Below are positions 11,896 to 44,588 of a stretch of DNA of 64,000 nucleotides, in pieces. Below the pieces are notes generated by a model. The model made no database searches. It was not told the DNA's origin and worked only from the letters and a program-made list of their open reading frames with translations. The stretch's first letter is position 1. Each line of letters begins with the position of its first letter. The translations under genes and the position numbers were made by a program. Source of the DNA: Leptospiria bacterium (GTDB lineage: Bacteria; Spirochaetota; Leptospiria; Turneriellales; CBDBES01); contig OZ253494.1 in NCBI GenBank assembly GCA_965262015.1, positions 1,018,720-1,082,719 on the forward strand. Reading direction: 5' to 3'.

Positions 11896-12786
11896 CTATT
11901 CTTCATGTGATTCCACAAAATCAGCGATATACTTTGTTACCTTATCTTTTTGTGAAAGATGTACCCAATGGCCTGCTTTTACCCTGTGAATAGAAACACT
12001 AGTTATATGATTATGATATACATTAAACTGCTCAGGTTTAATGAAGGGGTCATCTAATCCAAGTATAATTTGTGTGGGTACATTTATGCTATTACGAGGA
12101 GGGATCTTTTTGAACATCATTGGAATAACATTTTTCCGGTATAGACTTAACATATTCACAATACCATGCATAGATTCAGGGTCCATTGTAGGCAATCCTT
12201 TGGCATCATTAGGCAGACTCTCTTTTCGTGTCATAATTTTGTACAACCAATTTCTTTGGTATTTTAGTAAAAACTCAAATAACCACGGTATATGTATCGC
12301 ATAAATATACCAGCTGGATAGAAACTGTTTGAAGGCAGAAAATACATCTAGAGAGAAAAAAGTCTTGGATATATACCGTGCCATCAAGGTGGGATGTGGC
12401 CCAGAAATTGCTGTATAAGAAAGAACATGTTTACGATGACTCTCATCAAAAACAAAACACCATCCTAAAGCTGCCCCCCAGTCATGCCCCACAAGATGCA
12501 CTTTTTTATTAGGACACAATTCCTGTATTACATAATCAATATCTACTAAAATTCTAGCAATCTTATAAGCAATAGGGGTCCGTGGTAGATCGCTCTTGCC
12601 AACCCCAACAAGATCAAAAGCTACTACATGAAAATCTTTAGATAAACCCTCTAATTGGTGAACCCACGAGTGATGGCTATCTGGAAAACCATGTAAAAAA
12701 ATGATCGATGGCTTCTTAGGATTACCACCAGTCACAGCATGTAATTCTACACCAGGGTATTGGGTAGGTATTCTTTGTACTTTCAC
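11896..12786 (-). CDS. Alpha/beta hydrolase (epoxide hydrolase/haloalkane dehalogenase-like)
   Basis: LHGFPDSHHSW oxyanion region and the nucleophile elbow VGHDWGA. Confidence 0.8.
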   Translation of the reverse strand: MKVQRIPTQYPGVELHAVTGGNPKKPSIIFLHGFPDSHHSWVHQLEGLSKDFHVVAFDLVGVGKSDLPRTPIAYKIARILVDIDYVIQELCPNKKVHLVGHDWGAALGWCFVFDESHRKHVLSYTAISGPHPTLMARYISKTFFSLDVFSAFKQFLSSWYIYAIHIPWLFEFLLKYQRNWLYKIMTRKESLPNDAKGLPTMDPESMHGIVNMLSLYRKNVIPMMFKKIPPRNSINVPTQIILGLDDPFIKPEQFNVYHNHITSVSIHRVKAGHWVHLSQKDKVTKYIADFVESHEE

Positions 12787-12798
12787 TCTATCCCCCTC

Positions 12799-13662
12799 TT
12801 ACCATTTTTTCCGCTTTGCTTCACGCATATGTGGCAAATTATCATCCAGCCAATAAGCACCTGAATCATCTATCACAAGTAGTTCTTCCCATTTAACACC
12901 ATAACCTTTGTAACCAATATGTGGCTCAACTGCCCACAAACCTTCGTAGGGAACATGGTCAGACTCGTACCAGTCATTCCAAAGATGTGATTTAACGACA
13001 TGAGGCAATAAAGCAGATAAAAGAGAATGCGGAACAAGCCACTTGAATTGATCCAGACCAAATCGTAATAAATGTCGTTTACTTACTTGTTCGGGATCAC
13101 GTACTTTCATAACCCGGTGGGCTAGAACACGTCTAGGATATTTTTTATGAATATTAACATAGCCATCTTCATGAAAGAGCTTATTTAATTTTTTATAAAT
13201 TAAACTAAAATTAGATTTAAGATTGACTTGTTCATGTATGAACTTGCGATATTTGATCAAATCTTTACGCATCTTGGCATGAATGGTATCATCTTCTTCA
13301 CCAAACATAATAGAATAACCAATATCGGCGGCATAACCATCTACAATTGGAGCGATATCTAGAATAACAGGCATACCTTTGGACAGCTTGCGCTTTGTAG
13401 GAAAAAATTGGATAGGAATAATAAAATACTTGAAGCGGGTTCTATCCCCAAACCAAGCGAAAGGCTTGTGGAAGAAAGTTGTTACGCCCTTAGCAGACAT
13501 CCAATCTGTCATTAAACGTACAGCTTCTTTTTCGGTCATACCTTCTGTTAGCTGTTTACCCACTGACTCTACACATTCATAGGAAAGTTTTTGTACTGCA
13601 GAAAACTTGTCCAGATCTTTTTGTGAAAATTTATCTAATTGATATAAACTACTCATACACAC
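12799..13662 (-). CDS. M24-family (pita-bread fold) metallopeptidase-like protein
   Basis: ILDIAPIVDGYAADIGYS and WAVEPHIGYKGYGVKWEELLVIDDSG resemble M24 metal-ligand blocks. Confidence 0.55.
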   Translation of the reverse strand: MCMSSLYQLDKFSQKDLDKFSAVQKLSYECVESVGKQLTEGMTEKEAVRLMTDWMSAKGVTTFFHKPFAWFGDRTRFKYFIIPIQFFPTKRKLSKGMPVILDIAPIVDGYAADIGYSIMFGEEDDTIHAKMRKDLIKYRKFIHEQVNLKSNFSLIYKKLNKLFHEDGYVNIHKKYPRRVLAHRVMKVRDPEQVSKRHLLRFGLDQFKWLVPHSLLSALLPHVVKSHLWNDWYESDHVPYEGLWAVEPHIGYKGYGVKWEELLVIDDSGAYWLDDNLPHMREAKRKKW

Positions 13663-13848: not shown

Positions 13849-15060
13849 TTAATCTTCACTACCATGTGTACCAGCCTCTTTATCAGCTGCACGATGAGCA
13901 TTATTAGCGGCATCTTCACCTGTAGCTTCAGCTACTTTTCTGGCAGCTGTACTCACAGTATGGCTGGCTATTCCCGTTTGGCTTTCACTCAGAGCAAAGG
14001 CCTTATTATATGCTGCATCTCCAGCTGTTATACCTTTTTGGATGCGGTCCAGTCTATCACCAACACTATAGTCTATGGCCCAAGGGAATCTGACAGATAC
14101 ACTGCTGCGTCTAGGCAGAAATGTAGAAGCCAATGCAAATTTTCCGAATTTAACTTTGAGTTTCTTAGATCGAGCATCCTTATCAAAACTAAGGCCTTCT
14201 TTGATACTCATGATCTCAATAGATACTGTACTTGAGTTGTCAGAAGGAACAAAATAATCGCTGTTTGTGGTGCTGTCTGGACACCTATGTGGATCTAATC
14301 TGAATGTGATGGCTTCACTATTTGCTGGAATAGTAACCGTTATTGTGCTTTTTGTATTCCTAAGGGACTCTTCATTATCTCCCCCTATGAACTTAAAGGA
14401 ATAAAAATTAGCTGATAACGGGAAGCCGATACCAGGGTGGCCGATACCCCCTTGCACATTACAACTACCTCTATCATCTTCTATTATTGTCACACATTGG
14501 GTATTAACCCTAACCATAATAGGGCCTGTTCCAAGGCTCCCTGTTGTGAGAGTATCTGGACAGGGAGCCCCTGTCCCTGTAGTCGGTGCAGTACTGGGAA
14601 CAATCTTAGTATGGCGTGGCATAATCTTTGGGGCTCTATGATATGCTGTTGTCGTCCCACTACCTTCACTGTTTTCTATCGCCCACATTAAAGTAACTGT
14701 TACAGGCTTGTCTGTTGGAGTCATTCTTCTCACTGTATAAACAGGCAAACGATTGGTTTTGATTGTATTCTTTATTGTTGCTATTCCATCTTCCAAGCAA
14801 TCCGAGTATTCGCCTGAACAATCTAAACTTAGTGTGACATCCACCTCTGGCACCTCTGGCACCTCTGGCACCTCTGTACCAACCATATCGTCTGGATCGC
14901 TATCAATTACCGGAACGCTACCAGCCTTGCAATATGCAAAAAAACAAACAATTATTAGTAAGCCGTAAAGTAAATGGTAAAAGTATCTATGTGTGCTGTG
15001 CTGTGCTGTGCTGTGCTGTGCTGTGCTGTGCTGTGCTGTGCTGTGCTGTGTGGTTTTCAT
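13849..15060 (-). CDS. Surface/lipoprotein family A, paralog 1 (phase-variable leader, in frame = ON)
   Basis: MKTT(QHSTA)n-HRYFYHLLYGLLIIVCFFAYC signal-peptide-like N-terminus. It shares the blocks LDCS...IATI.NTIKT..LP.YT, FYSFKF, TF.LDPHRCPD and LKVKF with 26402-27608 and 27781-28992. Confidence 0.7.
   Translation of the reverse strand: MKTTQHSTAQHSTAQHSTAQHSTHRYFYHLLYGLLIIVCFFAYCKAGSVPVIDSDPDDMVGTEVPEVPEVPEVDVTLSLDCSGEYSDCLEDGIATIKNTIKTNRLPVYTVRRMTPTDKPVTVTLMWAIENSEGSGTTTAYHRAPKIMPRHTKIVPSTAPTTGTGAPCPDTLTTGSLGTGPIMVRVNTQCVTIIEDDRGSCNVQGGIGHPGIGFPLSANFYSFKFIGGDNEESLRNTKSTITVTIPANSEAITFRLDPHRCPDSTTNSDYFVPSDNSSTVSIEIMSIKEGLSFDKDARSKKLKVKFGKFALASTFLPRRSSVSVRFPWAIDYSVGDRLDRIQKGITAGDAAYNKAFALSESQTGIASHTVSTAARKVAEATGEDAANNAHRAADKEAGTHGSED
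14996..15050 (-). repeat. Pentanucleotide microsatellite (CACAG)11 on the coding strand
   Basis: 11 perfect CTGTG units on the plus strand, starting 10 nt after the ATG at 15060. They encode (HSTAQ)n. Confidence 0.95.
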
Positions 15061-15531
15061 AGGGGAAACGTGTTACACATGCCTAAAAAATCAACACTTT
15101 TTTATATAAAATTGTAAAATAGAGTGGAAAGTTGCTACCTGCTATGGACTGGAGGGCCTATCCAGGAGCTGGACAGAATAAACCTGGGTATACATACATA
15201 TGCAGAAGCCTCTAATACTCTTTAGAGTTTTTGAAATTTTGTATTTTCTGTTCGGCTGTTGTAGATAATAGATCCTGGATATTATCTGCCTGAGAAAATA
15301 ACTGTTTCTATTATCTTCTTGTTTGGTTTTAAGGGGAACAGCAAAGTTTATAGTAAATTAGATTGTCCAGGTTCATAATGGAATTTCCAATAGAAAGCCA
15401 TGACTTAATTATTAAGATATTTACAAGATATCTCATAATTATAGTGATAGATCATGTTTAGGAGGATTGTTTGATATTATGAGTCAACACCTCTTTTTAT
15501 TAGTCTATTAGATTCGTCAGTCCAGTAAATC

Positions 15532-17508
15532 ATGCTTGCAGAAGAATTGTCTAAGCTTAGTCATTACCATTTACGTAATATGGTGAATGTATGGGGCATG
15601 CCTGTTAGAGCAAACTGTACAAAACCAACATTAATCTCTAAGATCATGCATTATTACATGGATGATTATTATCTTAAAGGGGTATTAGAAAATTTAACGC
15701 CATTACAAGTTACTATTTTATGCGTAATACTGGAAAGTAAGACAGTTTTAACTCTAGGCGAAATTTCTCGGTCTATTCGAGTACAACCAATTAATGTTGA
15801 AAAAGAGTTATCTGTTTTAAAGCATTTTCTATTAATTTATCAAAAAAAAAATCGAGCCCGCATTACAAGTAATCTAGATAAATATCCTCCTTATGATGAA
15901 GTCAAAAATCGTATACTTACAGATAAGAATATCAAGGGAAATAAACTACGCATCACCATCGAAAAGATGGTATCTACAAAAGATATTGATACTTTTTCTA
16001 AGGAATATTTACATTTACTGGGGAAAAATATTTCTAAAGATAATTTGGTTACACAAGCCACAAGTACTAGTTTTCTGGAGAAGGTCTTAACAAAATTAAG
16101 TAACGAAGAAGCAATATTAATTGATGAAATTTTCCAAAATGGTGGTATCCTTGAAATTAATCATGCTCGACTTATTCTTGAAGAAAATAAGTTAAATCAA
16201 GAAGTAGCTATTCGTAGATTGGATAACTTACAAATCGTAAAAGATTTATATTTTGTTGAGCATCGCTTTATTCGTATGCTCATTATGCCTGTTGAGTTTT
16301 TTGAATATCTGAAAGAGAATCCTCTTGTTATTAGAGAAGTAGGCATTACTGCCATGGAAGAGAAAATTCTTTCTAATGAATTTGACTTCATCATTAATCT
16401 TAAAAAATTATTATTATTTATCTCTAATAAAGGTTTCACATTAACACAGTCTCAATCTATTAAACAAGTTGATCTTAAAAAAACAGAAGAACATATGATT
16501 GATATTGATGTTAGTCTTTTTAGAAAAAAAAGCCATATATACCAAGTGGAAATTGCCCTACCTATTCTAAAATTATTTAATTTAGTTTCACTTAAAACAG
16601 ATCATCTGATTTTAGAAAATAATTTTGAAGAATTTATTAAAGAAGATATACTTGTTTTATTACAAGATATTCTAGCAAAAATTAAAGAAACCGAAAATAA
16701 ATACACCAAAGGTGAAGGCTTTTTTCTTCCTACATCACTATCTTTTTATGATCAGGCTACTTTTCATGAATGTATTGAGATGATTGGAACTACAGGCCAC
16801 ATATCAACTAAAACCATTATTGCACAGATGATAAGAGAAAAAGTTGTCTTATCGCCTACCTTCAGCATACAAGAATTTCGAACCTCGTATATGGCAGAAT
16901 ATAAACGATTAGTTTCAGCTCTGCTTTATATGCAATTATTTGGTATTATTACGGTTTATTATCCAGAGCGTACTATTGAGTTATCAGAAATAGGGAAATA
17001 TCTTTTCTTCCAAGAGCCTCTCACGATGGAAAGCACAAAGGGATGTCTATATGTTAATCCTGATGGTTCTATCTTAGCAATGAAAGATGAAATGTCTTTA
17101 TTTGATATTGCAATATTAAAAGCCTTTTGTGTTCTTCAAGAAAAAAGTTATGTTTATAATTTTATACTAAATCGAGATTCCGTACAACAAGGTATTTTAT
17201 TAGGCTATAGTATTGACAAGTTACATACTTTGCTAGTAGAAAAGTCTAAAACAAAATTACCCCAAAATCTATCTTTCTGGGTAGAAGATTGGACTAAAGA
17301 ACTACCTATTATTGTTATCGAAGAAGGAGTAGTATTATTAGAAACATCCAACCCGCAACTTAAACAGTTGCTTGTGGGACAACTAAGAAACTCTAGAATT
17401 GTACTGAAAGATATATCCCCAACTACAATGATAATTGACAAAACAAAAATTAAAGACGTAATGTTACTTGCTGAAAAATTTGATATGATTGTTAAACTTA
17501 TTCGTTAG
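15532..17508 (+). CDS. Hypothetical 658-aa cytoplasmic protein
   Basis: Long uninterrupted ORF with no TM or signal peptide. I cannot recognise a catalytic motif. The N-terminus is helical (LSKLSHYHLRNMVNVWGM...). Confidence 0.6.
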   Translation: MLAEELSKLSHYHLRNMVNVWGMPVRANCTKPTLISKIMHYYMDDYYLKGVLENLTPLQVTILCVILESKTVLTLGEISRSIRVQPINVEKELSVLKHFLLIYQKKNRARITSNLDKYPPYDEVKNRILTDKNIKGNKLRITIEKMVSTKDIDTFSKEYLHLLGKNISKDNLVTQATSTSFLEKVLTKLSNEEAILIDEIFQNGGILEINHARLILEENKLNQEVAIRRLDNLQIVKDLYFVEHRFIRMLIMPVEFFEYLKENPLVIREVGITAMEEKILSNEFDFIINLKKLLLFISNKGFTLTQSQSIKQVDLKKTEEHMIDIDVSLFRKKSHIYQVEIALPILKLFNLVSLKTDHLILENNFEEFIKEDILVLLQDILAKIKETENKYTKGEGFFLPTSLSFYDQATFHECIEMIGTTGHISTKTIIAQMIREKVVLSPTFSIQEFRTSYMAEYKRLVSALLYMQLFGIITVYYPERTIELSEIGKYLFFQEPLTMESTKGCLYVNPDGSILAMKDEMSLFDIAILKAFCVLQEKSYVYNFILNRDSVQQGILLGYSIDKLHTLLVEKSKTKLPQNLSFWVEDWTKELPIIVIEEGVVLLETSNPQLKQLLVGQLRNSRIVLKDISPTTMIIDKTKIKDVMLLAEKFDMIVKLIR

Positions 17509-18460: not shown

Positions 18461-19681
18461 TTATTCAATAAAGGCTTTGTGAACCACATTTAACGCCCTG
18501 TGGGCCTGCTCTTTATCTATTACACATGAGATTTTAATTTCACTGGTAGATACCATCAAAATATTAATTTTCTCTTGAGATAAAACTAGAAAAGTCTTTG
18601 CTGCTACCCCTGAATGAGACTTCATCCCAATCCCAATAACAGATAAAATAGCAATTTCTTCTTTTACCTCTAATTCTCCTTGTTTCCATAATTGTATACA
18701 TTCTTTTACAATGTCCTGGGCTTCTCTAAGATTATTCTGGGTCACGGTAAAAGAGATTGTGTTCATCTGATTTTTACCAATAGACTGTACAATCATATCC
18801 ACCACAATATTCTTTTCTGCTAACATCGTGAATAATTGTGCAGCTATTCCTGGTTTATCTGGTATATCAATAACAGATATCTGAGCCTCATCATCTTTAA
18901 GGGTCACTCCTGTCACCCATATCTCTTCCATATTTTTATCCCCCTTATTTACCAAGGTACCTTCTCTAATATTATAACTAGAACGTACATGTAGTATAAC
19001 ACTATATTTTTTAGCAAACTCAACGCAACGAGAATGCAACACACCTGCTCCTAAAGAAGCAAACTCTAGCATCTCATCATAAGAAATGTGTTCTAATTTT
19101 TTTGCACTAGAAACTACCGCAGGATTGGCAGTATATACTCCATCTACATCCGTATAAATTTCACATTCTTTTGCCGAGAGCTCAGCTGCCAAAGCAACCG
19201 CAGTAATATCTGAACCACCCCGACCTAGAGTAGTAACATTTTGATTACTACCTATCCCTTGAAACCCCGCTACAAGACATACTTGATGTGTTTTAAACGC
19301 CTGTTTAATTTGTTGGGTATCTATTTTTTTAATCCTGGCATTACTATAATTGTCATCTGTCACAATATTAACCTGAAAAGCTAAAAAACTAATGGCCGAA
19401 ATCCCTTCAGTATGCAATGCCATGGCTAAAAGTGATATTGATATTTGTTCACCCGTTGAAAGCAACATATCCATTTCTCGTTTTGCAGGGTTTGGTGTGA
19501 TCTCGTATGCTAGTTTAGTAAGATTGTCTGTAGTTTTACCCATGGCTGATACAACAACTACCAATCGATCATTTGGCTTAAGTTTCTGTTTTATACGTTT
19601 AGCAATTTTTTTCAAACGGTCTACATCACTAACTGATGTACCGCCATATTTCTGAACATATATGGGATTCGAAATTTTCAA
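18461..19681 (-). CDS. lysC: Aspartate kinase
   Basis: VQKYGGTSV, VVVSAMGKTTD, RGGSDITA and two C-terminal ACT-like repeats. Confidence 0.9.
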   Translation of the reverse strand: MKISNPIYVQKYGGTSVSDVDRLKKIAKRIKQKLKPNDRLVVVVSAMGKTTDNLTKLAYEITPNPAKREMDMLLSTGEQISISLLAMALHTEGISAISFLAFQVNIVTDDNYSNARIKKIDTQQIKQAFKTHQVCLVAGFQGIGSNQNVTTLGRGGSDITAVALAAELSAKECEIYTDVDGVYTANPAVVSSAKKLEHISYDEMLEFASLGAGVLHSRCVEFAKKYSVILHVRSSYNIREGTLVNKGDKNMEEIWVTGVTLKDDEAQISVIDIPDKPGIAAQLFTMLAEKNIVVDMIVQSIGKNQMNTISFTVTQNNLREAQDIVKECIQLWKQGELEVKEEIAILSVIGIGMKSHSGVAAKTFLVLSQEKINILMVSTSEIKISCVIDKEQAHRALNVVHKAFIE

Positions 19682-20484: not shown

Positions 20485-23400
20485 TTATTTCCTATGATAT
20501 TCTCGTCTTTCTTTTTCTAAGTCTACTAATTGGCTACCCGTAAAAGGTAGGCTTCCTTTAATATGGTGAAAGATATAGCCCCTTTCTTCCCAAATTGCAT
20601 AATAGGCTGGAACAACAAATAAAGTTACCATGGAAGCAAAAGCAAGCCCCCATCCAATAGCCAATGCCATAGGTTTAAGAAAAGGGTCATCTCCACCAAT
20701 TCCATATGCCGTGGGTAATATTCCAAAAACGGTAGTTAGAGTTGTAAGAATGACAGGCCTTAATCGAAGCAAACAGCCTTGTACAATGGCATCATATTGC
20801 TTATGGCCTTCAGATTTTCTTTGTCTAATAAAGTCTACCATTACAATAGAATCGTTCACTACAACACCCGCTAAAGCGATCATGCCAAACATAGCCAAAA
20901 AGCTAAAAACGAGATTTGGTAGAAAAAACAGTTTGTGCATACCAAATGCGAAAGTAACGCCCGTTAAACTTAACGGCACAGCAATAAGGATTACCCTAAG
21001 ATACCTTAAATTATTATACAAGAGAATAAGAATAATAGCAATACCTAAAAGAGCGATAACAGCTGCTCGTTTTAAACTATCCATGGATTCTTGTGTATCT
21101 TCGTACTCTCCACCCGCTACTACTCGTACACCTGGAAATTTTTTTAGAGTGGGTTGTAATTTATCTAATATAGTTTTATTGACTTGCACAGCAGTTGTCT
21201 GACTTTCATTGATTTGGGCATTAACATATACAACCCTCTCAAAGTTTTTGTGTTGTATCTCGGATAAACTACCTTGTTCCCTAAATTTAACAAATTTATC
21301 AATGGCAACCATATTGCCGTATCGATTGCGTATTTTTACTTTCTTAAGAGAACCAAGTGTATTACGTAATTGTTTTGGGAAAATAACACGTATATCAATA
21401 TCTTCATCAATATTTTTGATTGTGCTTGCAACGGTGCCACTGAAAGCCGTACGCACACTATTTGCAATCTGTGCTACTGTGACGCCCGCAAAAGCAGATT
21501 TTTTTTCATCTATGTCTACATTAAATTCTTTCTTATCAGATTCCCAACTATCTTTGATGCTATATACCCCAGGAACAGAATATAGAACTTGTTTCACTTT
21601 TTGAACAAATGTAAGAGTACTTTCAAAATTACTGCCCTGTATTTCTAATTGTATTGGTGCACCAACAGGAGGTCCTGGTGCCACTAGGCTACTAGCAAGC
21701 CGTATAAACTTTTTTGGTTCTTGTTTCACTATAGCAATTTTATATAAGGGTGATGAGTTGCCCTGTTGTGTTGCCTTATAAATAAAGCCATGCTTAGCAT
21801 AAAAATAAATTTTTCTCTTTGAGGGTACATAAACAGAGCGATATATTCCATTTGAAGTAGGAAACGTAATCACTTCTTTTAAGGTTTTTAAATTAATTAA
21901 AGCAAGGGTATCATGAGTATTTACCCAAATGTGGTGTTTATGAATCGGATCCGTCTTGAGCCAGGAGATAGGGCGATTATAGATATGAGCATGCTGAACT
22001 TGACGGAAAGTTTTAAGGTCAAGCATATGTATATGACCTTGTTCAGAGCCCATTATAATTTGTTGATTAGCTTCATCCAGAGTGATGGCATTAATTTTAC
22101 CCATAGGTACCTGTATATCTGGAATAAATCGCTTTTCTGCCAATTGATAAAGTGGTATACTGTCAATACGTTTACGAAGATTCATCTCATCTTCTTTATA
22201 CTCCCATATATCTAGGTTACTATCTCCATACGAAATGGCACAAATATGATATTTTTCTATACATTTAATAAAATTAATGGTCTTTTTGTATTGATGCACC
22301 GAGTCCTTGTCCATTGTAGTAGGGTCAATCTGGTATACATATCCCAATTGTGAAGTAAAGATGTCAAAAGGAGCGTTAGAGATTGGATAAAATCCATTGA
22401 CAAGATCAAAAACACCTAGATCAATAGTTTTTTGGGCAAGAACTTTATTGCTCTTTATGTCAAGAGATACATAGATGTTATCCATTGTTATAGCATTAAG
22501 CTGTTTACCCTTATTGACAACAATACCCCCTAATAGGGCCTCTATGTTCAATTTATACTGTTTTATCTGGTCGGTACGGGTATTCAACAAATGAAGATAG
22601 TTATCATTACGAATGTGATATAAAGTATCTTGGGCACCCTCCATAACAGCTACATGATGCACTGGTTTTTTAATGTCTAGTTTTCCTTGTAAGTAAGCAT
22701 GAATTTGCCCAGCTGTTCTTCCTCTAGCTGCCTCTGGAGCCAGAAAGATTGAGATTTGTGCATAATTGGATCCTCGTTTCGTAAACGGATCATTTATATC
22801 AGTTTGCTGTATGCCTACCCTGGTAGTATAACTATCAAGTTCACTTTTAGGTAAAGAACCTATAGTTTTTTCCATAGATTTTAGTCTTGAACGTGTCTCT
22901 CCCAAAACAATACCTTTTTCTGTTTCCACAGAAAAGCTTATTATTCTAATCCCTTCTTTGGGGAAGAGAATAAAACCAATCTTGCCAATAAGATATATAC
23001 TAAAGAGAAAGGTTGCAAATGTTATGAACAATGTAGTGTATTTATAAGTGATAGCACGTTCTAAAAGAGGACGGTAAACCTTGAGTAAGACTGCCATCAA
23101 TTTTACCTGTGCTCTGTGTGCCCAATTTTTCCAACTCGCTGGCTCATTTTTACGTGCATCAGTTGTCTCTTTGCTTTCTGCAAGATCAAGCACATGAGCG
23201 GGTAGCACAAAAAAACTTTCTATCAATGAACCAACCAAGGCTATAACAACCACGGCACCCATAATCCATATAAATTTTCCCATTAAACCACTCATGAAAA
23301 TAAGAGGACTGAAGGCAAAACACGTGGTACTAATGGATGCAACAACAGGCTTAACCATTTCTTGGGTGCCGTGAATGGCAGCCTGTGTAATAGGCATCCC

Positions 23401-24645
23401 TTCTTGGATATATCGATATATATTTTCTGAAATAATAATAGCGTCATCTACTACCAAACCGATCGCCATCACAAAACCAAACATAGACAATAAATTGATG
23501 CTTATACCAAAATACTGCATTAAAATTAGGGTAATGGCAAAGGCAAATGGCATACCCATACTCACAGCTATGGAGATACGCCATCCTAAAAAGAAAAATA
23601 GAACTCCAAATACTAGGAACAGACCAATAATAACATTACTGGCTAGCACGTTTAGTCTACGTCTTGTATACATTGACAGGTCATTGTAAGTTGTATAGCT
23701 GATACCTGCCTCTGGGTTTTTCTCTAGTATATTTTTTACATCACGAACTAGATGAAGAACATCGCCTTTGTTCCTTTTCAGGATAGCAGCAATAATAGCA
23801 GGCCGACCATTCGCATTTTCCAACATACTTAAGGCTTCAAATGTATCTTTGACGTTAGCGATATCGATTAACTTAACAGAGGCTCCATAGTCATTTGTGC
23901 GAATAGCAAGATTGCGTATTTCATCTAAATGATTAAACTCTTTATCAATCCTTACGTTATAGTCCCTACCAGAGTGGGATACGGTACCACCAGAGAGATT
24001 AAGATTTCTGTTAGCTAAAGATGAAATAATATCATCATGAGATATATTGTAACGTGCTAACTTGGCAGGGTTAATTTCAATATGGATTTCTCTACTGGGT
24101 TTACCTCTCACATCTACACGACCTATGTCAGGAAGTAACTCAATCTCATCGACTATATTACTTATGTGCTTACGAAATGCAAGCTCAGATATTTTGGGAT
24201 CATCTTTGTAAAAAGCTACTTCAATAATACCCTGAAGATCAGTCTTGATCTCAATGACAGTTGGTTCTTCTGCATCGTCTGGGAAACCTACCTTAGCGAT
24301 GTCAACAGCATCTTTGATTTCTTGCAGGGTCTTACTTTGGTCTGGTATACCCTCTTCTAACTGCATTGTGATCGTAGATCGATTTTCTAGTGATTTAGAA
24401 GTTATACTTTTTACGTATTCAATACCTTTTAGCTGTTTTTCGATTGGTATTGTTAATAATGATTCTACTTCTTGTGCTGCTGCCCCAGGATATATTGTGA
24501 CGATGTTGACAAAGCCCAAATTCACTGGCGTAAAAACTTCACGTCTGGCTTCTATAACAGCAAATAAACCTGCCACAAGCAGTGCGACGGATATTATGTT
24601 TGTGATTAGACTATTTCGTACTAAAAAAGCAATTAACTTATTCAC
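20485..24645 (-). CDS. RND (AcrB/AcrD/AcrF-type) efflux transporter with an oversized second periplasmic loop
   Basis: 12-TM RND layout. Conserved TM4 and TM10 blocks are GLVVDDAIIISENI and AGVVVNDSIVMVDFI. Length is 1386 aa against roughly 1000-1100 aa typical for the family. Confidence 0.85.
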   Translation of the reverse strand: MNKLIAFLVRNSLITNIISVALLVAGLFAVIEARREVFTPVNLGFVNIVTIYPGAAAQEVESLLTIPIEKQLKGIEYVKSITSKSLENRSTITMQLEEGIPDQSKTLQEIKDAVDIAKVGFPDDAEEPTVIEIKTDLQGIIEVAFYKDDPKISELAFRKHISNIVDEIELLPDIGRVDVRGKPSREIHIEINPAKLARYNISHDDIISSLANRNLNLSGGTVSHSGRDYNVRIDKEFNHLDEIRNLAIRTNDYGASVKLIDIANVKDTFEALSMLENANGRPAIIAAILKRNKGDVLHLVRDVKNILEKNPEAGISYTTYNDLSMYTRRRLNVLASNVIIGLFLVFGVLFFFLGWRISIAVSMGMPFAFAITLILMQYFGISINLLSMFGFVMAIGLVVDDAIIISENIYRYIQEGMPITQAAIHGTQEMVKPVVASISTTCFAFSPLIFMSGLMGKFIWIMGAVVVIALVGSLIESFFVLPAHVLDLAESKETTDARKNEPASWKNWAHRAQVKLMAVLLKVYRPLLERAITYKYTTLFITFATFLFSIYLIGKIGFILFPKEGIRIISFSVETEKGIVLGETRSRLKSMEKTIGSLPKSELDSYTTRVGIQQTDINDPFTKRGSNYAQISIFLAPEAARGRTAGQIHAYLQGKLDIKKPVHHVAVMEGAQDTLYHIRNDNYLHLLNTRTDQIKQYKLNIEALLGGIVVNKGKQLNAITMDNIYVSLDIKSNKVLAQKTIDLGVFDLVNGFYPISNAPFDIFTSQLGYVYQIDPTTMDKDSVHQYKKTINFIKCIEKYHICAISYGDSNLDIWEYKEDEMNLRKRIDSIPLYQLAEKRFIPDIQVPMGKINAITLDEANQQIIMGSEQGHIHMLDLKTFRQVQHAHIYNRPISWLKTDPIHKHHIWVNTHDTLALINLKTLKEVITFPTSNGIYRSVYVPSKRKIYFYAKHGFIYKATQQGNSSPLYKIAIVKQEPKKFIRLASSLVAPGPPVGAPIQLEIQGSNFESTLTFVQKVKQVLYSVPGVYSIKDSWESDKKEFNVDIDEKKSAFAGVTVAQIANSVRTAFSGTVASTIKNIDEDIDIRVIFPKQLRNTLGSLKKVKIRNRYGNMVAIDKFVKFREQGSLSEIQHKNFERVVYVNAQINESQTTAVQVNKTILDKLQPTLKKFPGVRVVAGGEYEDTQESMDSLKRAAVIALLGIAIILILLYNNLRYLRVILIAVPLSLTGVTFAFGMHKLFFLPNLVFSFLAMFGMIALAGVVVNDSIVMVDFIRQRKSEGHKQYDAIVQGCLLRLRPVILTTLTTVFGILPTAYGIGGDDPFLKPMALAIGWGLAFASMVTLFVVPAYYAIWEERGYIFHHIKGSLPFTGSQLVDLEKERREYHRK
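21690..22670 (-). other. ~320-aa insertion (aa ~660-985) in RND periplasmic loop 2
   Basis: Extra non-TM, beta-strand-like sequence lies between ...YLQGKLDIKK and the conserved GPPVGAPIQLEIQGSNFE block. Confidence 0.6.
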
Positions 24646-26401: not shown

Positions 26402-27608
26402 TTACTCAGCACTACCATACTGGCCAGCAACTTTATCAACTATATCATAAATATCATTGTTAAATAATACATCGTTTTCTGTTTGTAGATCACTTAGTGT
26501 TTTCTTAGTTTTTTCCACAAGTGCATTCTTAATTGCTTGCTTAAAAACTGCGTCAGTTACACCCAATCCTCCATTAGAAAATTTAACTTTTAGGCTTTTG
26601 CTTGTCGTATCGTGAGCGAAGTCTGCAACTCGTTCGGCAACGGGGACAGCTGTTTGATCGAGACTCTTAATACCAACAGATATTGTTGATGAAGATTTAG
26701 TAGGAACTTCATAATCATCACTTGTACTGTTGTCTGGACATCTATGTGGATCTAAATGAAATGTAGTGCTTCGGCTACCTTCTGGAATCTCTACGCTTAT
26801 AAGATGTATTGCCCGCCCAGTTCCGGGAACTGTCCCATCCTCTGGATCTTCTATAGCTCTACCATCTGACTTTATGAACTTAAAGGAATAAAAAGTAGCT
26901 GACCATTTATGATCTACATTGTTAGTCTGCAATTTACAAGAATGCCTTGCTATCGTAGGATTATAGGACATATCATCATATTTGAAGTTAACAAGAGGAG
27001 GACTAACCTTTGGATGCAGATCGTATGCCTTATGTCTACTAAGACCCACGTTTCTCATAGTGCCAGTCGCATAAGTCTTGCTGCCCCTAACACTTCCTAT
27101 GCCACGACCAAAACCACTACCATCAGCGGCAGCCACGTCCCATCCTATCTTAACTGTTAAATCATATTCTGTAGAACCTTTTCTGCATAACGTATACATA
27201 GGTAAATTATCTGTTTTTATTGTATTGGTTATTGTTGCTATTTTGTTGCCTTCGGTCCCCTTCTTGCAATTCTTGTGACCTTTGCTTGAACAATCTAAAC
27301 GCAGGAAGACATCTTCTTCTGGTGGATCAACATCACATGTATGAACATCCTTAATTGGTGGGTCGTTACTATTCGGTGGGTCGTTGGGGTTGGGGCTATT
27401 CGTCGGATCGCTAGCATCCACTGGACTGCTATCTCCTCCTGGACTGCAATACGTAAAAAAACAAATAGTTATTAGCAGGCCATAAAGTAACTGGTAAAAG
27501 TATCTATGTGTTGTGCTGTTGTGCTGTTGTGCTGTTGTGCTGTTGTGCTGTTGTGCTGTTGTGCTGTTGTGCTGTTGTGCTGTTGTGCTGTTGTGCTGTT
27601 GTGCTCAT
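26402..27608 (-). pseudogene. Surface/lipoprotein family A, paralog 2: reversibly frameshifted (phase OFF)
   Basis: The ATG at 27608 reads MSTTAQQHN... and stops at TAG 27506-27504. The body frame (339 codons, 26402-27421) is open upward through the repeat but has no start and is closed by TGA 27607-27605. The ATG-to-CAT(HRYFY, 27508) distance is 100 nt. Confidence 0.8.
27511..27605 (-). repeat. Octanucleotide microsatellite (CAGCACAA) x 11 + 7 nt on the coding strand
   Basis: Perfect TTGTGCTG units counted on the plus strand from 27511. The tract abuts the ATG (27606-27608). Confidence 0.95.
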
Positions 27609-27640: not shown

Positions 27641-27665
27641 CAATACTTTTTTTAAAAAAGTATTG
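27641..27665. promoter_or_regulatory. 25-bp palindrome CAATACTTTTTT-T-AAAAAAGTATTG, 33-57 nt upstream of the family A ATG
   Basis: Perfect 12-nt arms. An identical copy lies at 29025-29049 at the same distance from the paralog's ATG. Confidence 0.4.
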
Positions 27666-27780: not shown

Positions 27781-28992
27781 TTACTCAGCACTACCATACT
27801 CTCCAGCAACTTTATCAACTACATCATAAATTTCATTGTTAAATAATACATTCCTTATTTTTTCTAGCTGATTTAGTACACCAGACGCCATCTCCGTACC
27901 ACCCGTCTCCACCACATTACCATTCATATTCAAACTTACTTCACCACTACTCACCGTTACACTACCCACCTCTTTACCATCTGCAAATGTGGTCTCAAGT
28001 GCAGTCTCAATTGCAGTCTTAAACGTTATCCCCCCTATAGAAGTATCCAATTCCTCATTAGAAAATTTAACTTTTAGGCCTTTGCTTGTGTCATCGGAAG
28101 TAAGAGCTACACTCTGTTCGGCGGTATCGAGACTCTTAATACCAACAGATATTTTTGATGAAGATGCAGGAGGAGCGTCATAATCATCACTTGTACTGTC
28201 GTCTGGACATCTATGTGGATCTAAACGAAATGTAGTGCTTTGGCTACCTGCTGGAATCTCTACGGTTATACGATTTATTGCCTCCCCAGTTTGGGGAGGC
28301 AATAAATCTATAGCTCTACCATCTGAATCTAGGAACTTAAAGGAATAAAAAGTAGCTGAAAGATCATCAGACCGCACTATACAAGAATGCCTCTTTGGAG
28401 ATGTATTACCAGAGTTGTAACGAGCATTAAAGTATCGGAAGTTAACAAGAGGGGGACTAACCTTTGGATGCAGATCATACGCAGAAGTCGACCCACTACT
28501 TCCTAAGCCACGACCAAAACCACTACCCTCACTGCCAGTCACGTCCCATTTTAACTCAACTGTTAAATCATATTCTGTAGAACCTTTTCTGCATAACGTA
28601 TACATAGGTAAATTATCTGTTTTTATTGTATTGGTTATTGTTGCTATTTCGTTGCCTTCGGTCCCCTTGCAACCCCTATAACCGCTTGAACAATCTAAAC
28701 GCAGGAAGACATCTTTGTCTGGTGGATCAACATCACATATATGAACATCTTCGTCTGGTGGAGGAGGGCTACTACTTACCGGATCGTTACCAGCCTTGCA
28801 ATATGTAAAAAAACAAATAGTTATTAGCAGGCCATAAAGTAACTGATAAAAGTATCTATGTGTTGTGCTGTTGTGCTGTTGTGCTGTTGTGCTGTTGTGC
28901 TGTTGTGCTGTTGTGCTGTTGTGCTGTTGTGCTGTTGTGCTGTTGTGCTGTTGTGCTGTTGTGCTGTTGTGCTGTTGTGCTGTTGTGCTCAT
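27781..28992 (-). CDS. Surface/lipoprotein family A, paralog 3 (in frame = ON)
   Basis: M(STTAQQHN)5STT-HRYFYQLLYGLLITICFFTYC, then the family blocks LRLDCSS, IATITNTIKTDNLPMYTLCRKGSTEYDLTV, ATFYSFKF, TTFRLDPHRCPD and LKVKF. The C-terminus VLFNNEIYDVVDKVAGEYGSAE is shared with paralog 2. Confidence 0.75.
   Translation of the reverse strand: MSTTAQQHNSTTAQQHNSTTAQQHNSTTAQQHNSTTAQQHNSTTHRYFYQLLYGLLITICFFTYCKAGNDPVSSSPPPPDEDVHICDVDPPDKDVFLRLDCSSGYRGCKGTEGNEIATITNTIKTDNLPMYTLCRKGSTEYDLTVELKWDVTGSEGSGFGRGLGSSGSTSAYDLHPKVSPPLVNFRYFNARYNSGNTSPKRHSCIVRSDDLSATFYSFKFLDSDGRAIDLLPPQTGEAINRITVEIPAGSQSTTFRLDPHRCPDDSTSDDYDAPPASSSKISVGIKSLDTAEQSVALTSDDTSKGLKVKFSNEELDTSIGGITFKTAIETALETTFADGKEVGSVTVSSGEVSLNMNGNVVETGGTEMASGVLNQLEKIRNVLFNNEIYDVVDKVAGEYGSAE
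28863..28989 (-). repeat. Octanucleotide microsatellite (CAGCACAA) x 15 + 7 nt
   Basis: Perfect TTGTGCTG units on the plus strand from 28863, abutting the ATG (28990-28992). The ATG-to-CAT(28860) distance is 132 nt, which is in frame. Confidence 0.95.
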
Positions 28993-29024: not shown

Positions 29025-29049
29025 CAATACTTTTTTTAAAAAAGTATTG
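29025..29049. promoter_or_regulatory. Second copy of the 25-bp palindrome upstream of family A paralog 3
   Basis: CAATAC-T7-A6-GTATTG, identical to 27641-27665. Confidence 0.4.
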
Positions 29050-39701: not shown

Positions 39702-41299
39702 TTATTGTGTTATGGTTATCTTTCGGATACGATGGTTGCCCGTATCTGCCACATATACATTGCCTAACTTATCAACCGCTACATCTTCAGGCCTTTTAAA
39801 TTGTACTGAAGTACCTGTGCCATCAGAACTACCACTACCGCCACCCGCCAATGTTGTAACCACACCATCAGGCGTTATTTTGCGGATACGATCGTTATCA
39901 CGATCTGCCACGTATACAAACCCTTTACTATCAACCGCTACTCCACTAGGCTTATTAAATTTTGCTGAAGTACCCACACCATCAGAATTACCACTACCGC
40001 CACCCGCCAATGTCGTAACCACACCACCAGGTGTTATTTTTTGGATACGATCGTTATCACGATCTGCCACGTATACAAACCCTTTACTATCAACTGCTAC
40101 ACTAACAGGAGTATTAAATTGTGCTGGACTCCCACCACCTGCAAATGTTGTAACCGTACCTGTGGACGTTATTTTGCGGATACGATCGTTCACAGTATCT
40201 GCCACGTATAATACATTGCCTGAACCATCAACCGCTACTCCATAAGGATTACTAAATCGCGCATCGGTACCCATGCCCTTCGTACAGCCGGAGGAGGGGG
40301 GAGTACATGGCATGCCTCCTACCCCACTTACGTTACCACCTGCCAAGGTTATAACCGTACCCGTACCCGTACCACTAGAAGGAGGTGTTATTTTTCGGAT
40401 AAGACTTCTAACCGAATCTGCCACATATACAAACCCATCACTATCAACCGCTACACCTTCAGGCTGATAGAATTGTGCTACACCAGGCATCCCAGGCATG
40501 TCATCCATACCGCCCACAGCACCAGTACCTGCGAATAAACTAACCGTACCTGTGGACGTTATTTTGCGGATACGATGATTCTGACGATCTGCTACATATA
40601 TTATATTGCCTAAACTATTAACCGCTACTCCAGCAGGCTCACTAAATTTTGCATCTGTACCCATGCCATCTTTGCAGGACTCTCCTATTGTTGCGAGGAT
40701 AATGCGAGTAGTAGTGCCACATTTAGTAGCAGTACCCATAGTACCCCCCTCGTTACCACCTGCTAACGTTGTAACCGTAACCTCGGCACAGGTTTTATCA
40801 CTTTTTAAGGCATAATAGTCATCGCAGGAAGTACATTTTTCTATACCCTTCCCAGGAGCTTTACCTGTTAATGGCACACCATTGGGGCAAATAAAATTGA
40901 ATGGTCTGCAAAGTTCACCATTTAGATCAAAACTAGGATCGCAAGAAACACATTTTTCTGTGTTAGCGGTTGAAACCTTTTCTGTTGATTCAACACCATT
41001 CGTACAAATAGGATCAAACTGTCCAGAACCACCACCAGAAGGGGTAGTAGCGTCGGCAGAGGCACCACCACCACATTGGACAGCAGCACTTACCACCAAT
41101 ACGGCAAATACGCTGATCGAGAAGTATCTTTTGGATACATGGAAAGAATGTTGACCTTGATCAACAATTCGTTCTAAAAATTTAGGAAAAGACTTATAGG
41201 TTGCTTGTTGCTTGTTGCTTGTTGCTTGTTGCTTGTTGCTTGTTGCTTGTTGCTTGTTGCTTGTTGCTTGTTGCTTGTTGCTTGTTGCTTGTTTATCAT
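39702..41299 (-). pseudogene. NHL-repeat lipoprotein, paralog 1: reversibly frameshifted (phase OFF)
   Basis: The body ORF 39702-41099 has Cys-rich modules plus NHL blades (GVAVDSKGFVYVADRDNDRIRKITP...). The SD-preceded ATG at 41299 reads MINK(QQATSNK)4QPISLFLNF and stops at 41176-41174. The body frame continues upstream as ...YKSFPKFLERIVDQGQHSFHVSKRYFSISVFAVLVVSAAVQCGGG (lipobox) with no start codon. ATG-to-body offset is 200 nt. Confidence 0.75.
41201..41291 (-). repeat. Heptanucleotide microsatellite (CAAGCAA)13 on the coding strand
   Basis: 13 perfect TTGCTTG units on the plus strand, beginning 8 nt after the ATG (41299). Confidence 0.95.
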
Positions 41300-42879: not shown

Positions 42880-42994
42880 GAAAGGCCATCAGAAGGGTTA
42901 GTAGCGTCGGCAGAGGGGAGAGGGGGCACCTCCACATTGGACGGTGCTTACCACCAATACGGCAAACACGCTGATCGAGAAGTATCTTTTGAAT
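42880..42994 (-). pseudogene. 5' fragment of a third NHL-family gene (signal-peptide region only)
   Basis: The reverse complement reads FKRYFSISVFAVLVVSTVQCGGAPS... It matches 44380-44465 apart from a 7-nt insertion. Promoter, ATG, heptamer tract and body are all missing. Confidence 0.6.
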
Positions 42995-43134
42995 AAAAGG
43001 TTTATAACCGCAATATAAAATTAGAAAAACTAATTTTATATGAAACATGGTGATAATCAAAAAACAGCTAAAAAAAGAAAACTAAATACCCCACCCCCAA
43101 CGTGGGATGGGTATAATAAGATACGAGATTACAA

Positions 43135-44588
43135 TTATTGTGGTATGGTTATTTTGCGGATACGATCGTTACCCGTATCTGCCACATATACATTGCCTAA
43201 CTTATCAACCGCTACATCTTCAGGCCTATTAAATTGTACTGAAGTACCTGTGCCATCAGAACTACCACTACCGCCACCCGCCAATGTTGTAACCACACCA
43301 TCAGGTGTTATTTTGCGGATACGATGATTATTAAGATCTGCCACATATACAAACCCTTTACTATCAACTGCCACTCCATAAGGCTTATTAAATTTTGCTG
43401 AAGTACCCACACCATCAGAACTACCACTACCGCCACCCGCCAATGTTGTAACCACACCATTAGGTGTTATTTTTTGGATACGATAATTATCACGATCTGC
43501 CACATATACATTGTTTGAACCATCAACTGCTACACTAACAGGCCTATTAAATTGTGCTGGACTCCCACCACCTGCAAATAAGCTAACCGTACCCATACCA
43601 CTAGAATCAAGCGTTATTTTATGGATATGATTGTTCCCAGTATCTGCCACGTATACAATCCCTGAACTATCAACCGCTACTCCAAAAGGTTCGCTAAGAC
43701 TAGTACCCGTCAAGGTATCAACCACACCTGCAGACGTTATCTTACGGATACTATTGTTGAATCTATCTGCCACATATACAAACCCATCACTATCAACCGC
43801 TACACCTTCAGGCTGCCGGAATTGTGCTACATTACCCGGACCATTCATAAAACCTCCTCCTTCTATCATCCCTCCCATACCATCCGCAGTCATACCAGTA
43901 CCTGCGAATGAGCTAACCACACGACCAGGCGTTATTTTGCGGATACGATTGTTCTGACGATCTACTACATATATATTGTCTAAACTATCAACCGCTATTC
44001 CAGCAGGATTATTAAATTCTGCTGAAGTACCTATGCCATCCATACAGCTGGAGGAGGGTGGAGTACATGGCATGCCTCCACCCTTGTTACCACCCGCCAA
44101 CGTTGTAACCGTAACCTCGGCACAGGTTTTATCACTTTTTAAGGCATAATAACTATTGCAAGAAGTACATTTTTCTATACCCTTCCCAGGAGCTTTACCT
44201 GTTGATTCAACACCATTCGTACAAATAAAATTGAATGGTCTGCAAAGTTCACCATTTTTCTCAAAACCAGTATTGCAAGAAACACATTTTTCTGTGTTAG
44301 CGGTTGAAACCTTTTCTGTTGAGGGAACACCATTCGTACAAATAGGATCAAACTGTCCAGACCCACCACCAGAAGGGATAGTAGCGTCGGCAGAGGGGGC
44401 ACCTCCACATTGGATGGTGCTTACCACCAATACGGCAAATACGCCGATCGAGAAGTATCTTTTGAATACATGGAAAGAATGTTGACCTTGATCAACAATT
44501 CGTTCTAAAAATTTAGGAAAAGACTTATAGGTTGCTTGTTGCTTGTTGCTTGTTGCTTGTTGCTTGTTGCTTGTTGCTTGTTTATCAT
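43135..44588 (-). pseudogene. NHL-repeat lipoprotein, paralog 2: reversibly frameshifted (phase OFF)
   Basis: Body ORF 43135-44430 (431 codons, NHL blades). The ATG at 44588 is followed by 7 heptamer units. ATG-to-body offset is 158 nt, the same wrong frame as paralog 1. Upstream in the body frame is ...HSFHVFKRYFSIGVFAVLVVSTIQCGGA. Confidence 0.75.
44532..44580 (-). repeat. Heptanucleotide microsatellite (CAAGCAA)7
   Basis: 7 perfect TTGCTTG units on the plus strand, 8 nt after the ATG (44588). Confidence 0.95.

What the first reader, a model, noticed from the sequence alone, without database searches (positions are those of the whole stretch)
14989..15060. Same protein family, different microsatellite: (CACAG)11 in the identical leader position
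The third family A paralog (13849-15060) sits 11 kb away from the tandem pair. It has the homologous HRYFY-hydrophobic-Cys leader. Between ATG and leader it carries a 5-nt unit (11 perfect CTGTG on the plus strand, 14996-15050) instead of the 8-nt unit. ATG(15060) to CAT(14991) is 69 nt, so this copy is ON. A change of one or two units would frameshift it. Two paralogs having different non-triplet repeats at the same site argues that the repeat is selected for as such, not inherited as coding sequence.
Basis: partly seen in the sequence, partly recalled or inferred. Interest (0 to 1): 0.65.

Follow-up and report, generated by a model that had tools for sequence, protein, structure and literature searches.

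The report
Frame-shifting microsatellite switch in lipoprotein leader
A perfect run of eleven 5-base repeats sits between the start codon and the export signal of a surface-type lipoprotein gene, so gaining or losing one repeat should switch the gene on or off; this is the well-known "contingency locus" trick, seen here in an uncultured relative of Leptospira.

Summary
(CACAG)11.8, 100% pure, lies on the minus strand at 14992-15050, between ATG 15060 and the HRYFY-hydrophobic-Cys leader of a 403-aa ORF (13849-15060) that is in frame (ON).

It is one of only five long non-triplet microsatellites in the 64-kb window. All five sit directly after the start codon of a putative lipoprotein gene:
- three copies of an orphan family A, with 5-nt or 8-nt units
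- two NHL-repeat genes (family B), with a 7-nt unit

Two are in frame. Three are out of frame but otherwise intact. Both wrong frames meet stop codons 0-11 codons after the tract. Paralogues elsewhere in the same 1.92-Mb genome carry a third unit (ACACC) or other copy numbers. All units lack T on the coding strand. The 5-mer AGCAC is the 8-mer AGCACAAC minus AAC, so the tract is inherited and its unit has turned over.

The best reading is slipped-strand, translational phase variation of lipoprotein families. This is mechanistically the same as Neisseria opa, in a deep Leptospirales-like lineage.

Switching itself was not shown, because no second strain or read data could be reached. Distant homologues in three related metagenome contigs lack long repeats.

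This is a new member of a known kind, of moderate interest.

The parts
14992..15050 (-). (CACAG)11.8 perfect microsatellite, the proposed switch element of paralogue A3
   Evidence: TRF; sequence; shuffle control
15058..15060 (-). ATG start codon of A3. It is the only canonical start upstream of the signal peptide. No Shine-Dalgarno-like motif precedes it.
   Evidence: The codons between the tract and Cys44 contain no ATG, GTG or TTG (read).
14929..14991 (-). Signal-peptide coding segment HRYFYHLLYGLLIIVCFFAYC (His24 to Cys44). It contains TAG and TAATAA in the two alternative frames.
   Evidence: It is 89-91% nt identical among A paralogues, against 59-69% for the mature part. The Cys aligns with canonical lipobox Cys residues of distant homologues.
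13849..15060 (-). Family A paralogue A3, 403 aa, in frame (ON)
14842..14876 (-). In-frame 9-nt repeat x3.9 (PEV PEV PEV) just after the lipobox. It can vary in length without changing the frame.
15061..15140 (-). Upstream region partly homologous to that of A1/A2 (blocks AACTTTC.AC, AAAAAAGTrTTGmTTTT and ACGTTyCmCT before the ATG). The presumed promoter was not resolved.
   Evidence: alignment; 66% identity over 80 nt; promoter scan no better than shuffles
28861..28989 (-). (AGCACAAC)16.1 tract of paralogue A2 (gene 27781-28992, 403 aa, ON)
27509..27605 (-). (AGCACAAC)12.1 tract of paralogue A1 (ATG 27608, stop 26402). It is OFF. Adding 1 or removing 2 units restores a full ORF with an intact leader.
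41200..41293 (-). (CAAGCAA)13.4 tract of NHL-repeat lipoprotein B1 (ATG 41299, stop 39702), out of frame with the SD-proximal ATG
44531..44582 (-). (CAAGCAA)7.4 tract of NHL-repeat lipoprotein B2 (ATG 44588, stop 43135), out of frame with the SD-proximal ATG

Best explanation
The tract is the mutable element of a translational phase-variation (contingency) switch. A perfect, T-free, non-triplet microsatellite lies between the only start codon and the signal peptide of a putative lipoprotein.

Inferred from the known behaviour of such tracts: slipped-strand mispairing during replication adds or removes 5-nt units.

Shown by computation: with 11 units (or 8, 14 ...) the ATG is in frame with the HRYFY-hydrophobic-Cys leader, and a full 403-aa precursor is made. 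With any other number, translation ends either at a TAG directly after the tract or at TAATAA 11 codons later, and no exportable protein is made.

The same cassette controls at least 7 visible family A leaders in this genome, with units AGCACAAC, AGCAC and ACACC. It also controls 3 NHL-repeat lipoprotein genes, with unit CAAGCAA. A clonal population can therefore display many combinations of these proteins.

Inferred: the products are exported and lipidated at the Cys and face the outside or the periplasm, and the variation serves to evade host, phage or predator.
For: 1. Position and frame.
2. Only five perfect repeats with unit >=4 nt and >=7 copies exist in 64 kb, and all five begin 3-10 nt after an ATG of a leader-bearing gene.
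3. The OFF copies are otherwise intact. A1, B1 and B2 each need only +1 or -2 units.
4. Both wrong frames stop 0 and 11 codons (family A) or 1 and 7 codons (family B) after the tract.
5. Copy number differs between recent duplicates while the flanks stay about 90% identical: A1 has 12 units and A2 has 16; B1 has 13 and B2 has 7, with about 10 in P0126.
6. All tracts are 100% pure although paralogue flanks differ by 10-40%.
7. A third unit, ACACC, is deduced unambiguously from the (TPHHT)n leader of P0002. Paralogues P0004, P0005/6 and P0011 have about 16, about 4 and 2 or fewer units of the 8-mer.
8. P0008 and P0009 were called from starts just after the Cys, exactly like the OFF copy A1 (= P0007).
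9. All units lack T on the coding strand (read). The chance is about 1e-3 for 20 independent positions at 28% T. Without T there can be no stop, no start and no hydrophobic NTN codon in any frame.
10. The mechanism is established for Neisseria opa, which has CTCTT repeats in the leader-peptide coding sequence and switches at about 1e-3 per cell per generation (PMC3745409).
Against: - No direct evidence of switching was obtained. The source genome and its reads could not be reached, and no second strain was found.
- Seven of the eight family A leaders whose frame can be read are ON. This is not the mixture expected of free-running switches, though it could reflect selection or an assembly consensus.
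- Three paralogues have tracts too short (4 or fewer units) to switch often.
- The residue before the Cys (Tyr in family A, Gln in family B) does not fit the classical [AGS]-C lipobox, so lipoprotein status is inferred rather than shown.
- All three family B copies are in the same wrong frame, which may mean I have their start codon wrong.
Confidence: 0.78

Rival explanations
1. The tract is a stable, translated low-complexity N-terminal extension of the signal peptide. It is hitch-hiking repetitive coding sequence with no meaningful switching, and the out-of-frame paralogues are ordinary decaying pseudogenes.
For: No polymorphism data are available. Most family A leaders are in frame. Fragmentary family members exist (P0011, P0012, P0014, P0017, P0018). 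These show that some copies do decay.
Against: The unit lengths of 5, 7 and 8 nt are not multiples of 3. The tracts are 100% pure while the flanks have diverged. Copy numbers differ between near-identical duplicates. The OFF copies have no other lesion over 339-465 codons. Long non-triplet repeats occur nowhere else in the window.
Confidence: 0.08
2. The CA-rich tract acts mainly, or additionally, as a downstream translation enhancer or tuner of export. Its length grades how much protein is made or secreted rather than only switching it on and off.
For: CA repeats just downstream of a start codon strongly enhance translation of leadered and leaderless mRNAs in E. coli (PMC9031893, citing Martin-Farmer & Janssen 1999). 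The family A genes have no Shine-Dalgarno motif before the ATG. All units are C/A-rich. In-frame tract lengths range from 2 or fewer to about 16 units, which gives N-terminal extensions of 5-43 residues.
Against: An enhancer does not need a non-triplet period or perfect tandem structure. The family B genes do have a Shine-Dalgarno motif (GAGAGG) yet carry the same kind of tract. The frame consequences are unavoidable whenever the length changes. This reading adds to the switch and does not replace it.
Confidence: 0.12
3. The tract length or frame is an assembly or sequencing artefact.
For: The genome looks like a long-read metagenome assembly. Related contigs carry names such as ctg138343_13x_l. 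A consensus cannot represent a mixed population.
Against: Five independent tracts of 52-129 nt are all perfect. Further paralogues on the same contig have the same architecture. Errors at 5-8-nt units are not a known systematic error mode (my own knowledge).
Confidence: 0.02

Closest known systems
Neisseria opa genes: (CTCTT)n in the leader-peptide coding sequence
   Same: A multicopy family (about 11 genes) of envelope proteins. A pentanucleotide repeat lies inside the 5' coding region before the mature protein. The frame is restored or disrupted by unit gain or loss, and each copy switches independently (PMC3745409).
   Different: Opa proteins are beta-barrel outer-membrane proteins, and family A has no Pfam or NCBIfam hit at all. 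CTCTT encodes the hydrophobic core of the signal peptide, whereas here a T-free tract encodes a polar extension upstream of the hydrophobic core. All opa genes share one unit, whereas here the unit differs between paralogues. The host here is a Leptospirales-like bacterium, not a beta-proteobacterium.
Haemophilus influenzae tetranucleotide contingency loci (for example lic1A and lic2A with CAAT, hgp genes with CCAA) (my own knowledge)
   Same: Non-triplet repeats lie a few codons after the start of surface-related genes. The switch is translational ON/OFF. Many loci per small genome combine to give many phenotypes.
   Different: The units there are 4 nt and contain T. Some of those loci use several start codons in different frames to give graded levels. 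For family A only one frame has a start.
Mycoplasma variable surface lipoprotein families (Vlp, Vsa, Vpma, vlhA)
   Same: Multigene lipoprotein families with a highly conserved 5' region and signal peptide joined to divergent mature parts, and stochastic expression of subsets (PMC5634654 and PMC9386052, as listed; mechanistic details are my own knowledge).
   Different: Those switches act through promoter poly-A or GAA tracts, or through site-specific inversion, and not through a frame-shifting repeat inside the leader coding sequence.
Treponema pallidum homopolymeric G tracts near tpr and other genes (my own knowledge; papers listed were not read)
   Same: Repeat-length-dependent variable expression of envelope proteins in a spirochaete.
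   Different: Those are homopolymers, mostly upstream, that act on transcription. Here perfect 5-8-nt units lie inside the ORF.

Membership tests
SSR-mediated translational phase-variation (contingency) locus | A perfect simple sequence repeat whose unit is not a multiple of 3, inside the ORF near its 5' end | tested here: met
   5-nt unit, 11.8 copies, 100% pure, starting 10 nt after the ATG
SSR-mediated translational phase-variation (contingency) locus | Unit gain or loss moves the downstream ORF out of frame and leads to early termination | tested here: met
   +/-1 or 2 units break the frame. Stops lie 0 and 11 codons after the tract in the two wrong frames.
SSR-mediated translational phase-variation (contingency) locus | No alternative start codon that would bypass the repeat | tested here: met
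   No ATG, GTG or TTG in frame between the tract and Cys44. In the OFF copy A1 the first in-frame start, GTG 27421, lies after the Cys.
SSR-mediated translational phase-variation (contingency) locus | Observed length polymorphism of the tract within or between populations, with reversible ON/OFF | not testable with these tools
Only indirect evidence exists: 12 versus 16 units and 13 versus 7 (about 10 in P0126) between duplicates with about 90% identical flanks.
SSR-mediated translational phase-variation (contingency) locus | The gene product is exposed to selection at the cell surface | tested here: inconclusive
   The signal peptide is recognised by inspection. The AF2 model shows a beta-sandwich core, but no structural or sequence relative of known function was found.
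Bacterial lipoprotein (signal peptidase II substrate) | A positively charged n-region, a hydrophobic h-region, and a lipobox ending in Cys with a small residue at -1 | tested here: inconclusive
   HR + LLYGLLIIVCFFA + Y-C is present, but Tyr at -1 (Gln in family B) violates the classical [AGS]-C rule. The Cys aligns within 0-2 columns of the canonical lipoboxes LLLC-GG and TFAC-GN of distant homologues. Spirochaetal lipoboxes are looser (my own knowledge).
Neisseria Opa / opacity protein family | Sequence homology to the eight-stranded Opa beta-barrel | tested here: not met
   No Pfam or NCBIfam family at E<=0.01, and only chance-level hits at E<=1. It works like opa but is not a member.
NHL-repeat beta-propeller proteins (family B neighbours only) | Multiple NHL repeats | tested here: met
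   PF01436 matches with E=1e-50 and 8e-52, six repeats each

The most novel reading that the evidence does not exclude
A reduced-genome, uncultured Leptospirales-like lineage has evolved a portable switch cassette after splitting from repeat-less relatives. The cassette is a start codon, then a T-free non-triplet microsatellite, then a conserved lipoprotein signal peptide with built-in stops in both wrong frames. It has spread over at least two unrelated gene families. The unit sequence turns over (AGCACAAC, AGCAC, ACACC, CAAGCAA) while position, T-free composition and non-triplet period are maintained. That would be a clean natural case of second-order selection on mutability. To my knowledge it would also be the first extensive multi-nucleotide-repeat phasome in Spirochaetota.
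Probability: 0.4. Interest if true: 0.6.

Novelty: new member of a known kind. Interest (0 to 1): 0.42.

Why it matters
- It predicts that an uncultured Leptospirales-like bacterium with a 1.9-Mb genome bet-hedges its envelope lipoproteins. That points to strong, fluctuating pressure from a host, phages or predators.
- It explains why gene callers truncate several family members. P0007 is called from a start just after the lipobox Cys, and P0008 and P0009 show the same pattern.
- The several unit types at one homologous site give a compact system for asking how mutable tracts are kept while their sequence changes.
- The mechanism itself is textbook, so the value lies in the lineage and in the unit turnover, not in a new principle.

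Tried and rejected
- **Other strains or orthologues.** None of these searches found any:
  - family A profile against GTDB representative genomes
  - family A profile against JGI metagenomes
  - the conserved leader DNA pattern against JGI metagenomes
  - exact-protein look-ups of P0002, P0004, P0011, P0012, P0017 and P0018, none of which is on record
- **Synteny.** Aspartate kinase (18461-19681) retrieved 80 loci. The best are 61% identical, from Leptospiraceae, Turneriella and Spirochaetota MAGs. The aspartate kinase-murI pair is conserved, but no family A gene, and none of the three other A3-flanking genes tested (15532-17508, 12799-13662, 11896-12786), is nearby.
- **Function of family A.**
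  - Pfam, NCBIfam and PDB sequence searches were empty.
  - The first AF2 model was poor (pLDDT 45).
  - A deeper alignment gave pLDDT 62 and pTM 0.64, with a beta-sandwich core plus C-terminal helices.
  - Foldseek against the PDB gave nothing below E=2.5e-3 and TM<=0.25. I draw no functional assignment from it.
- **Promoter.** The consensus scan upstream of A3 was no better than shuffles.
- **Repeat peptide search.** Searching the A2 leader peptide (the (STTAQQHN)n repeat plus the HRYFY signal peptide) returned only short low-complexity ORFs from unrelated metagenome contigs. This was uninformative.
- **Literature.** I found no report of multi-nucleotide SSR phase variation in Leptospira or its relatives. 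Absence from this library is weak evidence.
- **Rejected ideas.**
  - A promoter-spacing switch, because the tract lies downstream of the ATG.
  - A mobile-element context, because the neighbours are ordinary chromosomal genes (purA, thiolase, aspartate kinase, murI, acrB, trpA, dnaB, tonB).

Full report
**Observation**

On the minus strand the sequence reads ATG AAA ACC A, then eleven perfect CACAG units (14996-15050), then CACA, then C ATA GAT ACT TTT.
- Tandem Repeats Finder gives 14992-15050, period 5, 11.8 copies, 100% matches.
- The ORF 13849..15060 (-) is 403 aa and starts at that ATG.
- From ATG 15060 to the His codon of HRYFY at 14991 is 69 nt, so the gene is in frame. One or two units more or fewer break the frame, and three restore it.
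- A 20-nt piece of the tract is expected 0 times in 100 shuffles of the window.

**Anatomy**

After the tract comes HRYFYHLLYGLLIIVCFFAYC|KAG: one Arg, a hydrophobic stretch, then Cys44.
- There is no ATG, GTG or TTG in frame between the tract and the Cys, so the tract cannot be bypassed.
- In the two wrong frames, translation stops at a TAG that begins one base after the tract (inside CATAGAT) or at TAATAA 11 codons later.
- The 70 nt after the tract are 89-91% identical among the three window paralogues, while the mature parts are 59-69% identical and the upstream 150 nt are 60-77% identical.
- The 3' junction CACATAGATACTTTTA is identical in all three copies, so the tracts occupy the same homologous site.
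- No Shine-Dalgarno-like motif precedes the family A start codons.

**The wider pattern in the window**

A scan for perfect repeats finds only five with a unit of 4 nt or more and at least 7 copies. All five are on the minus strand directly after an ATG.

| Gene | Unit | Copies | Tract | Gene span | State |
|---|---|---|---|---|---|
| A3 | CACAG | 11.8 | 14992-15050 | 13849-15060 | ON |
| A2 | AGCACAAC | 16.1 | 28861-28989 | 27781-28992 | ON |
| A1 | AGCACAAC | 12.1 | 27509-27605 | 26402-27608 | OFF |
| B1 | CAAGCAA | 13.4 | 41200-41293 | 39702-41299 | OFF |
| B2 | CAAGCAA | 7.4 | 44531-44582 | 43135-44588 | OFF |

- Each OFF copy needs only +1 or -2 units and has an otherwise open frame of 339-465 codons.
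- B1 and B2 are NHL-repeat beta-propeller proteins (PF01436, E about 1e-50). They have a KRYFS-hydrophobic-VQC leader, a TTGACA-type promoter-like box and a GAGAGG ribosome-binding motif.
- They are unrelated to family A, so the same device serves two families.

**The rest of the family**

A search of 5.8 billion proteins with A3 found ten proteins, all on one 1,922,353-bp contig. A full HMMER profile search of 1.84 billion representatives added fragments and a few distant relatives.

The leaders of the out-of-window paralogues are informative.
- P0002 starts MQ(TPHHT)5T-HRYFY. Five residues per period with these amino acids fit only the 5-nt unit ACACC (ACA CCA CAC CAC ACC). This is a third unit type, with about 15-16 copies.
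- P0004 has about 16 units of the 8-mer, P0005 and P0006 about 4, and P0011 2 or fewer.
- P0008 and P0009 were called from starts that align just after the Cys, exactly as the OFF copy A1 (= P0007) was. They are probably OFF copies too; this is inference.
- A third family B gene, P0126, has about 10 units.

**Unit turnover**

- The 5-mer, written AGCAC, is the first five bases of the 8-mer AGCACAAC. The A3 tract is therefore best seen as a descendant of the same ancestral tract in which a unit lost AAC and the new unit then spread by slippage. It is not an independent invention.
- All four units lack T on the coding strand. At the 28% T of these genes, 20 independent positions would all be T-free with probability about 1e-3. 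This is a rough figure, because the family A units are related to each other.
- T-free units cannot form a stop codon, a start codon or an NTN (hydrophobic) codon in any frame. Every in-frame length therefore just adds a polar stretch (T, A, Q, H, S, N, K, P) ahead of the signal peptide.
- That constraint, the non-triplet periods, the 100% purity and the built-in stops after the tract are what one expects if the mutable tract itself is maintained.

**Mechanism proposed**

- Shown: the architecture, the frames, the stops and the differences between paralogues.
- Inferred: replication slippage changes the unit number at a high rate. Only one frame in three yields an exportable precursor. The product is lipidated at the Cys. 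Independent switching of more than ten loci creates combinatorial surface diversity.

This is the mechanism established for Neisseria opa genes, where CTCTT repeats in the leader-peptide coding sequence restore or disrupt the frame at about 1e-3 per cell per generation (PMC3745409). A non-exclusive addition is that the CA-rich tracts may also enhance translation, as CA repeats downstream of start codons do in E. coli (PMC9031893). That would suit the family A starts, which lack a Shine-Dalgarno motif.

**Organism and relatives**

The neighbours are ordinary chromosomal genes: purA, thiolase and 3-hydroxyacyl-CoA dehydrogenase, aspartate kinase, murI, an AcrB-type pump, trpA, dnaB, tldD, tonB and a TonB-dependent receptor.
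- Aspartate kinase is at most 61% identical to anything in GTDB representatives. The best hits are Leptospiraceae, Turneriella and Spirochaetota MAGs, followed by Leptospira species at 56-58%.
- Those loci keep the aspartate kinase-murI pair but have no family A gene nearby.
- The source is therefore a deep Leptospirales-like lineage with a small genome and about 35% GC.

Distant family A homologues occur on three contigs of one ENA metagenome assembly (ERZ26693861).

| Locus | Contig length |
|---|---|
| L081 | 8.7 kb |
| L082 and L084 | 1.54 Mb |
| L083 | 2.13 Mb |

- They have canonical lipoboxes (LLLC-GGD, TFAC-GNS) that align with the family A Cys.
- They have no long microsatellite.
- Two copies on the 1.54-Mb contig have ATG ACA ACA AAA CAA AAC AAG, that is (AACAA)3, in the equivalent position. 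This may be a seed-sized, T-free proto-repeat.
- In L081, four of the six tandem copies have ATC or ATA where the other two have ATG.

The long switch tracts therefore look like an innovation of the window's lineage.

**What could not be done**

The decisive test is length polymorphism within or between populations, and it was out of reach.
- The source genome is not in the searchable DNA collections.
- No other strain was found in genomes or metagenomes.

The function of family A also stays unknown.
- There is no Pfam, NCBIfam or PDB sequence match.
- The AF2 model has a beta-sandwich core and C-terminal helices (pLDDT 62).
- There is no significant structural neighbour.

**Verdict**

This is a new member of a well-known kind, the SSR contingency locus of opa type. 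It is made more interesting by several unit types at one homologous site, a second family using the same device, and an unusual host lineage. Interest is moderate (0.42).

Noticed in passing
window 39702-41299 and 43135-44588; P0126 (elsewhere in the same genome): All three NHL-repeat (family B) copies have unit numbers of 13.4, 7.4 and about 10.4. All are therefore in the same frame, which is out of frame with the ATG that follows the GAGAGG ribosome-binding motif. P0126 was annotated from a start further upstream because a TAA in B1 and B2 is CAA there. Either all three are OFF in the same frame (chance 1/9 to 1/4) or the real start or frame logic of this family differs from what I assumed.
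   Followed up: partly
window 42916-43000 (-): A third, truncated copy of the family B signal-peptide segment, 93% identical to B2's. It lies just downstream of B2, has no ATG or repeat, and looks like a recombination remnant.
   Followed up: no
window 40900-41030 (-); L081 2755-3000: A Cys-rich module (C.NGV..T.......KC..C...F.L....C) follows the lipobox both in the window's family B proteins and in the distant family A homologues of L081 and L083. The window's own family A proteins lack it. This suggests domain shuffling between the two lipoprotein families.
   Followed up: no
L081 2660-8235: The locus is a run of six genes that share one leader: an 822-aa gene followed by five tandem family A homologues. 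Only two of the six have ATG at the conserved start position. The others have ATC or ATA there. This may be silencing by start-codon mutation instead of by a repeat.
   Followed up: partly
L082 3567-3590 and L084 1332-1346: (AACAA)3 lies directly after the ATG of a distant family A homologue. It is conserved in two copies on a 1.54-Mb contig. It is a short T-free repeat at the same position as the long tracts of the window.
   Followed up: partly
window 15057-15080 (-): A 7-codon upstream ORF (ATG TGT AAC ACG TTT CCC CTA TGA) whose stop overlaps the A3 start codon as ATGA. It is present only upstream of A3, not of A1 or A2.
   Followed up: no
window about 29027-29047 and 27643-27663 (-): A perfect palindrome, ATACTTTTTTAAAAAAAGTAT, about 35-55 nt upstream of the A1 and A2 start codons. 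It is only partly kept upstream of A3. It could be an operator or part of the promoter.
   Followed up: no
window 54243-54588 (-): A long in-frame 21-nt repeat array (about 16 copies, 77-96% matches) inside a 747-aa protein with a TonB C-terminal domain. It looks like a Lys/Ala/Glu-rich spacer of variable length.
   Followed up: no
window 20485-24645 (-): An AcrB-type RND pump of 1386 aa with a beta-propeller-like insertion (weak WD40-type Pfam hits at residues about 785-964). This is unusually long for the family.
   Followed up: no
window 14842-14876 (-): An in-frame 9-nt repeat (CCAGAGGTG x3.9, giving PEV repeats) right after the A3 lipobox. It is a second, frame-neutral length-variable element in the same gene.
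   Followed up: no
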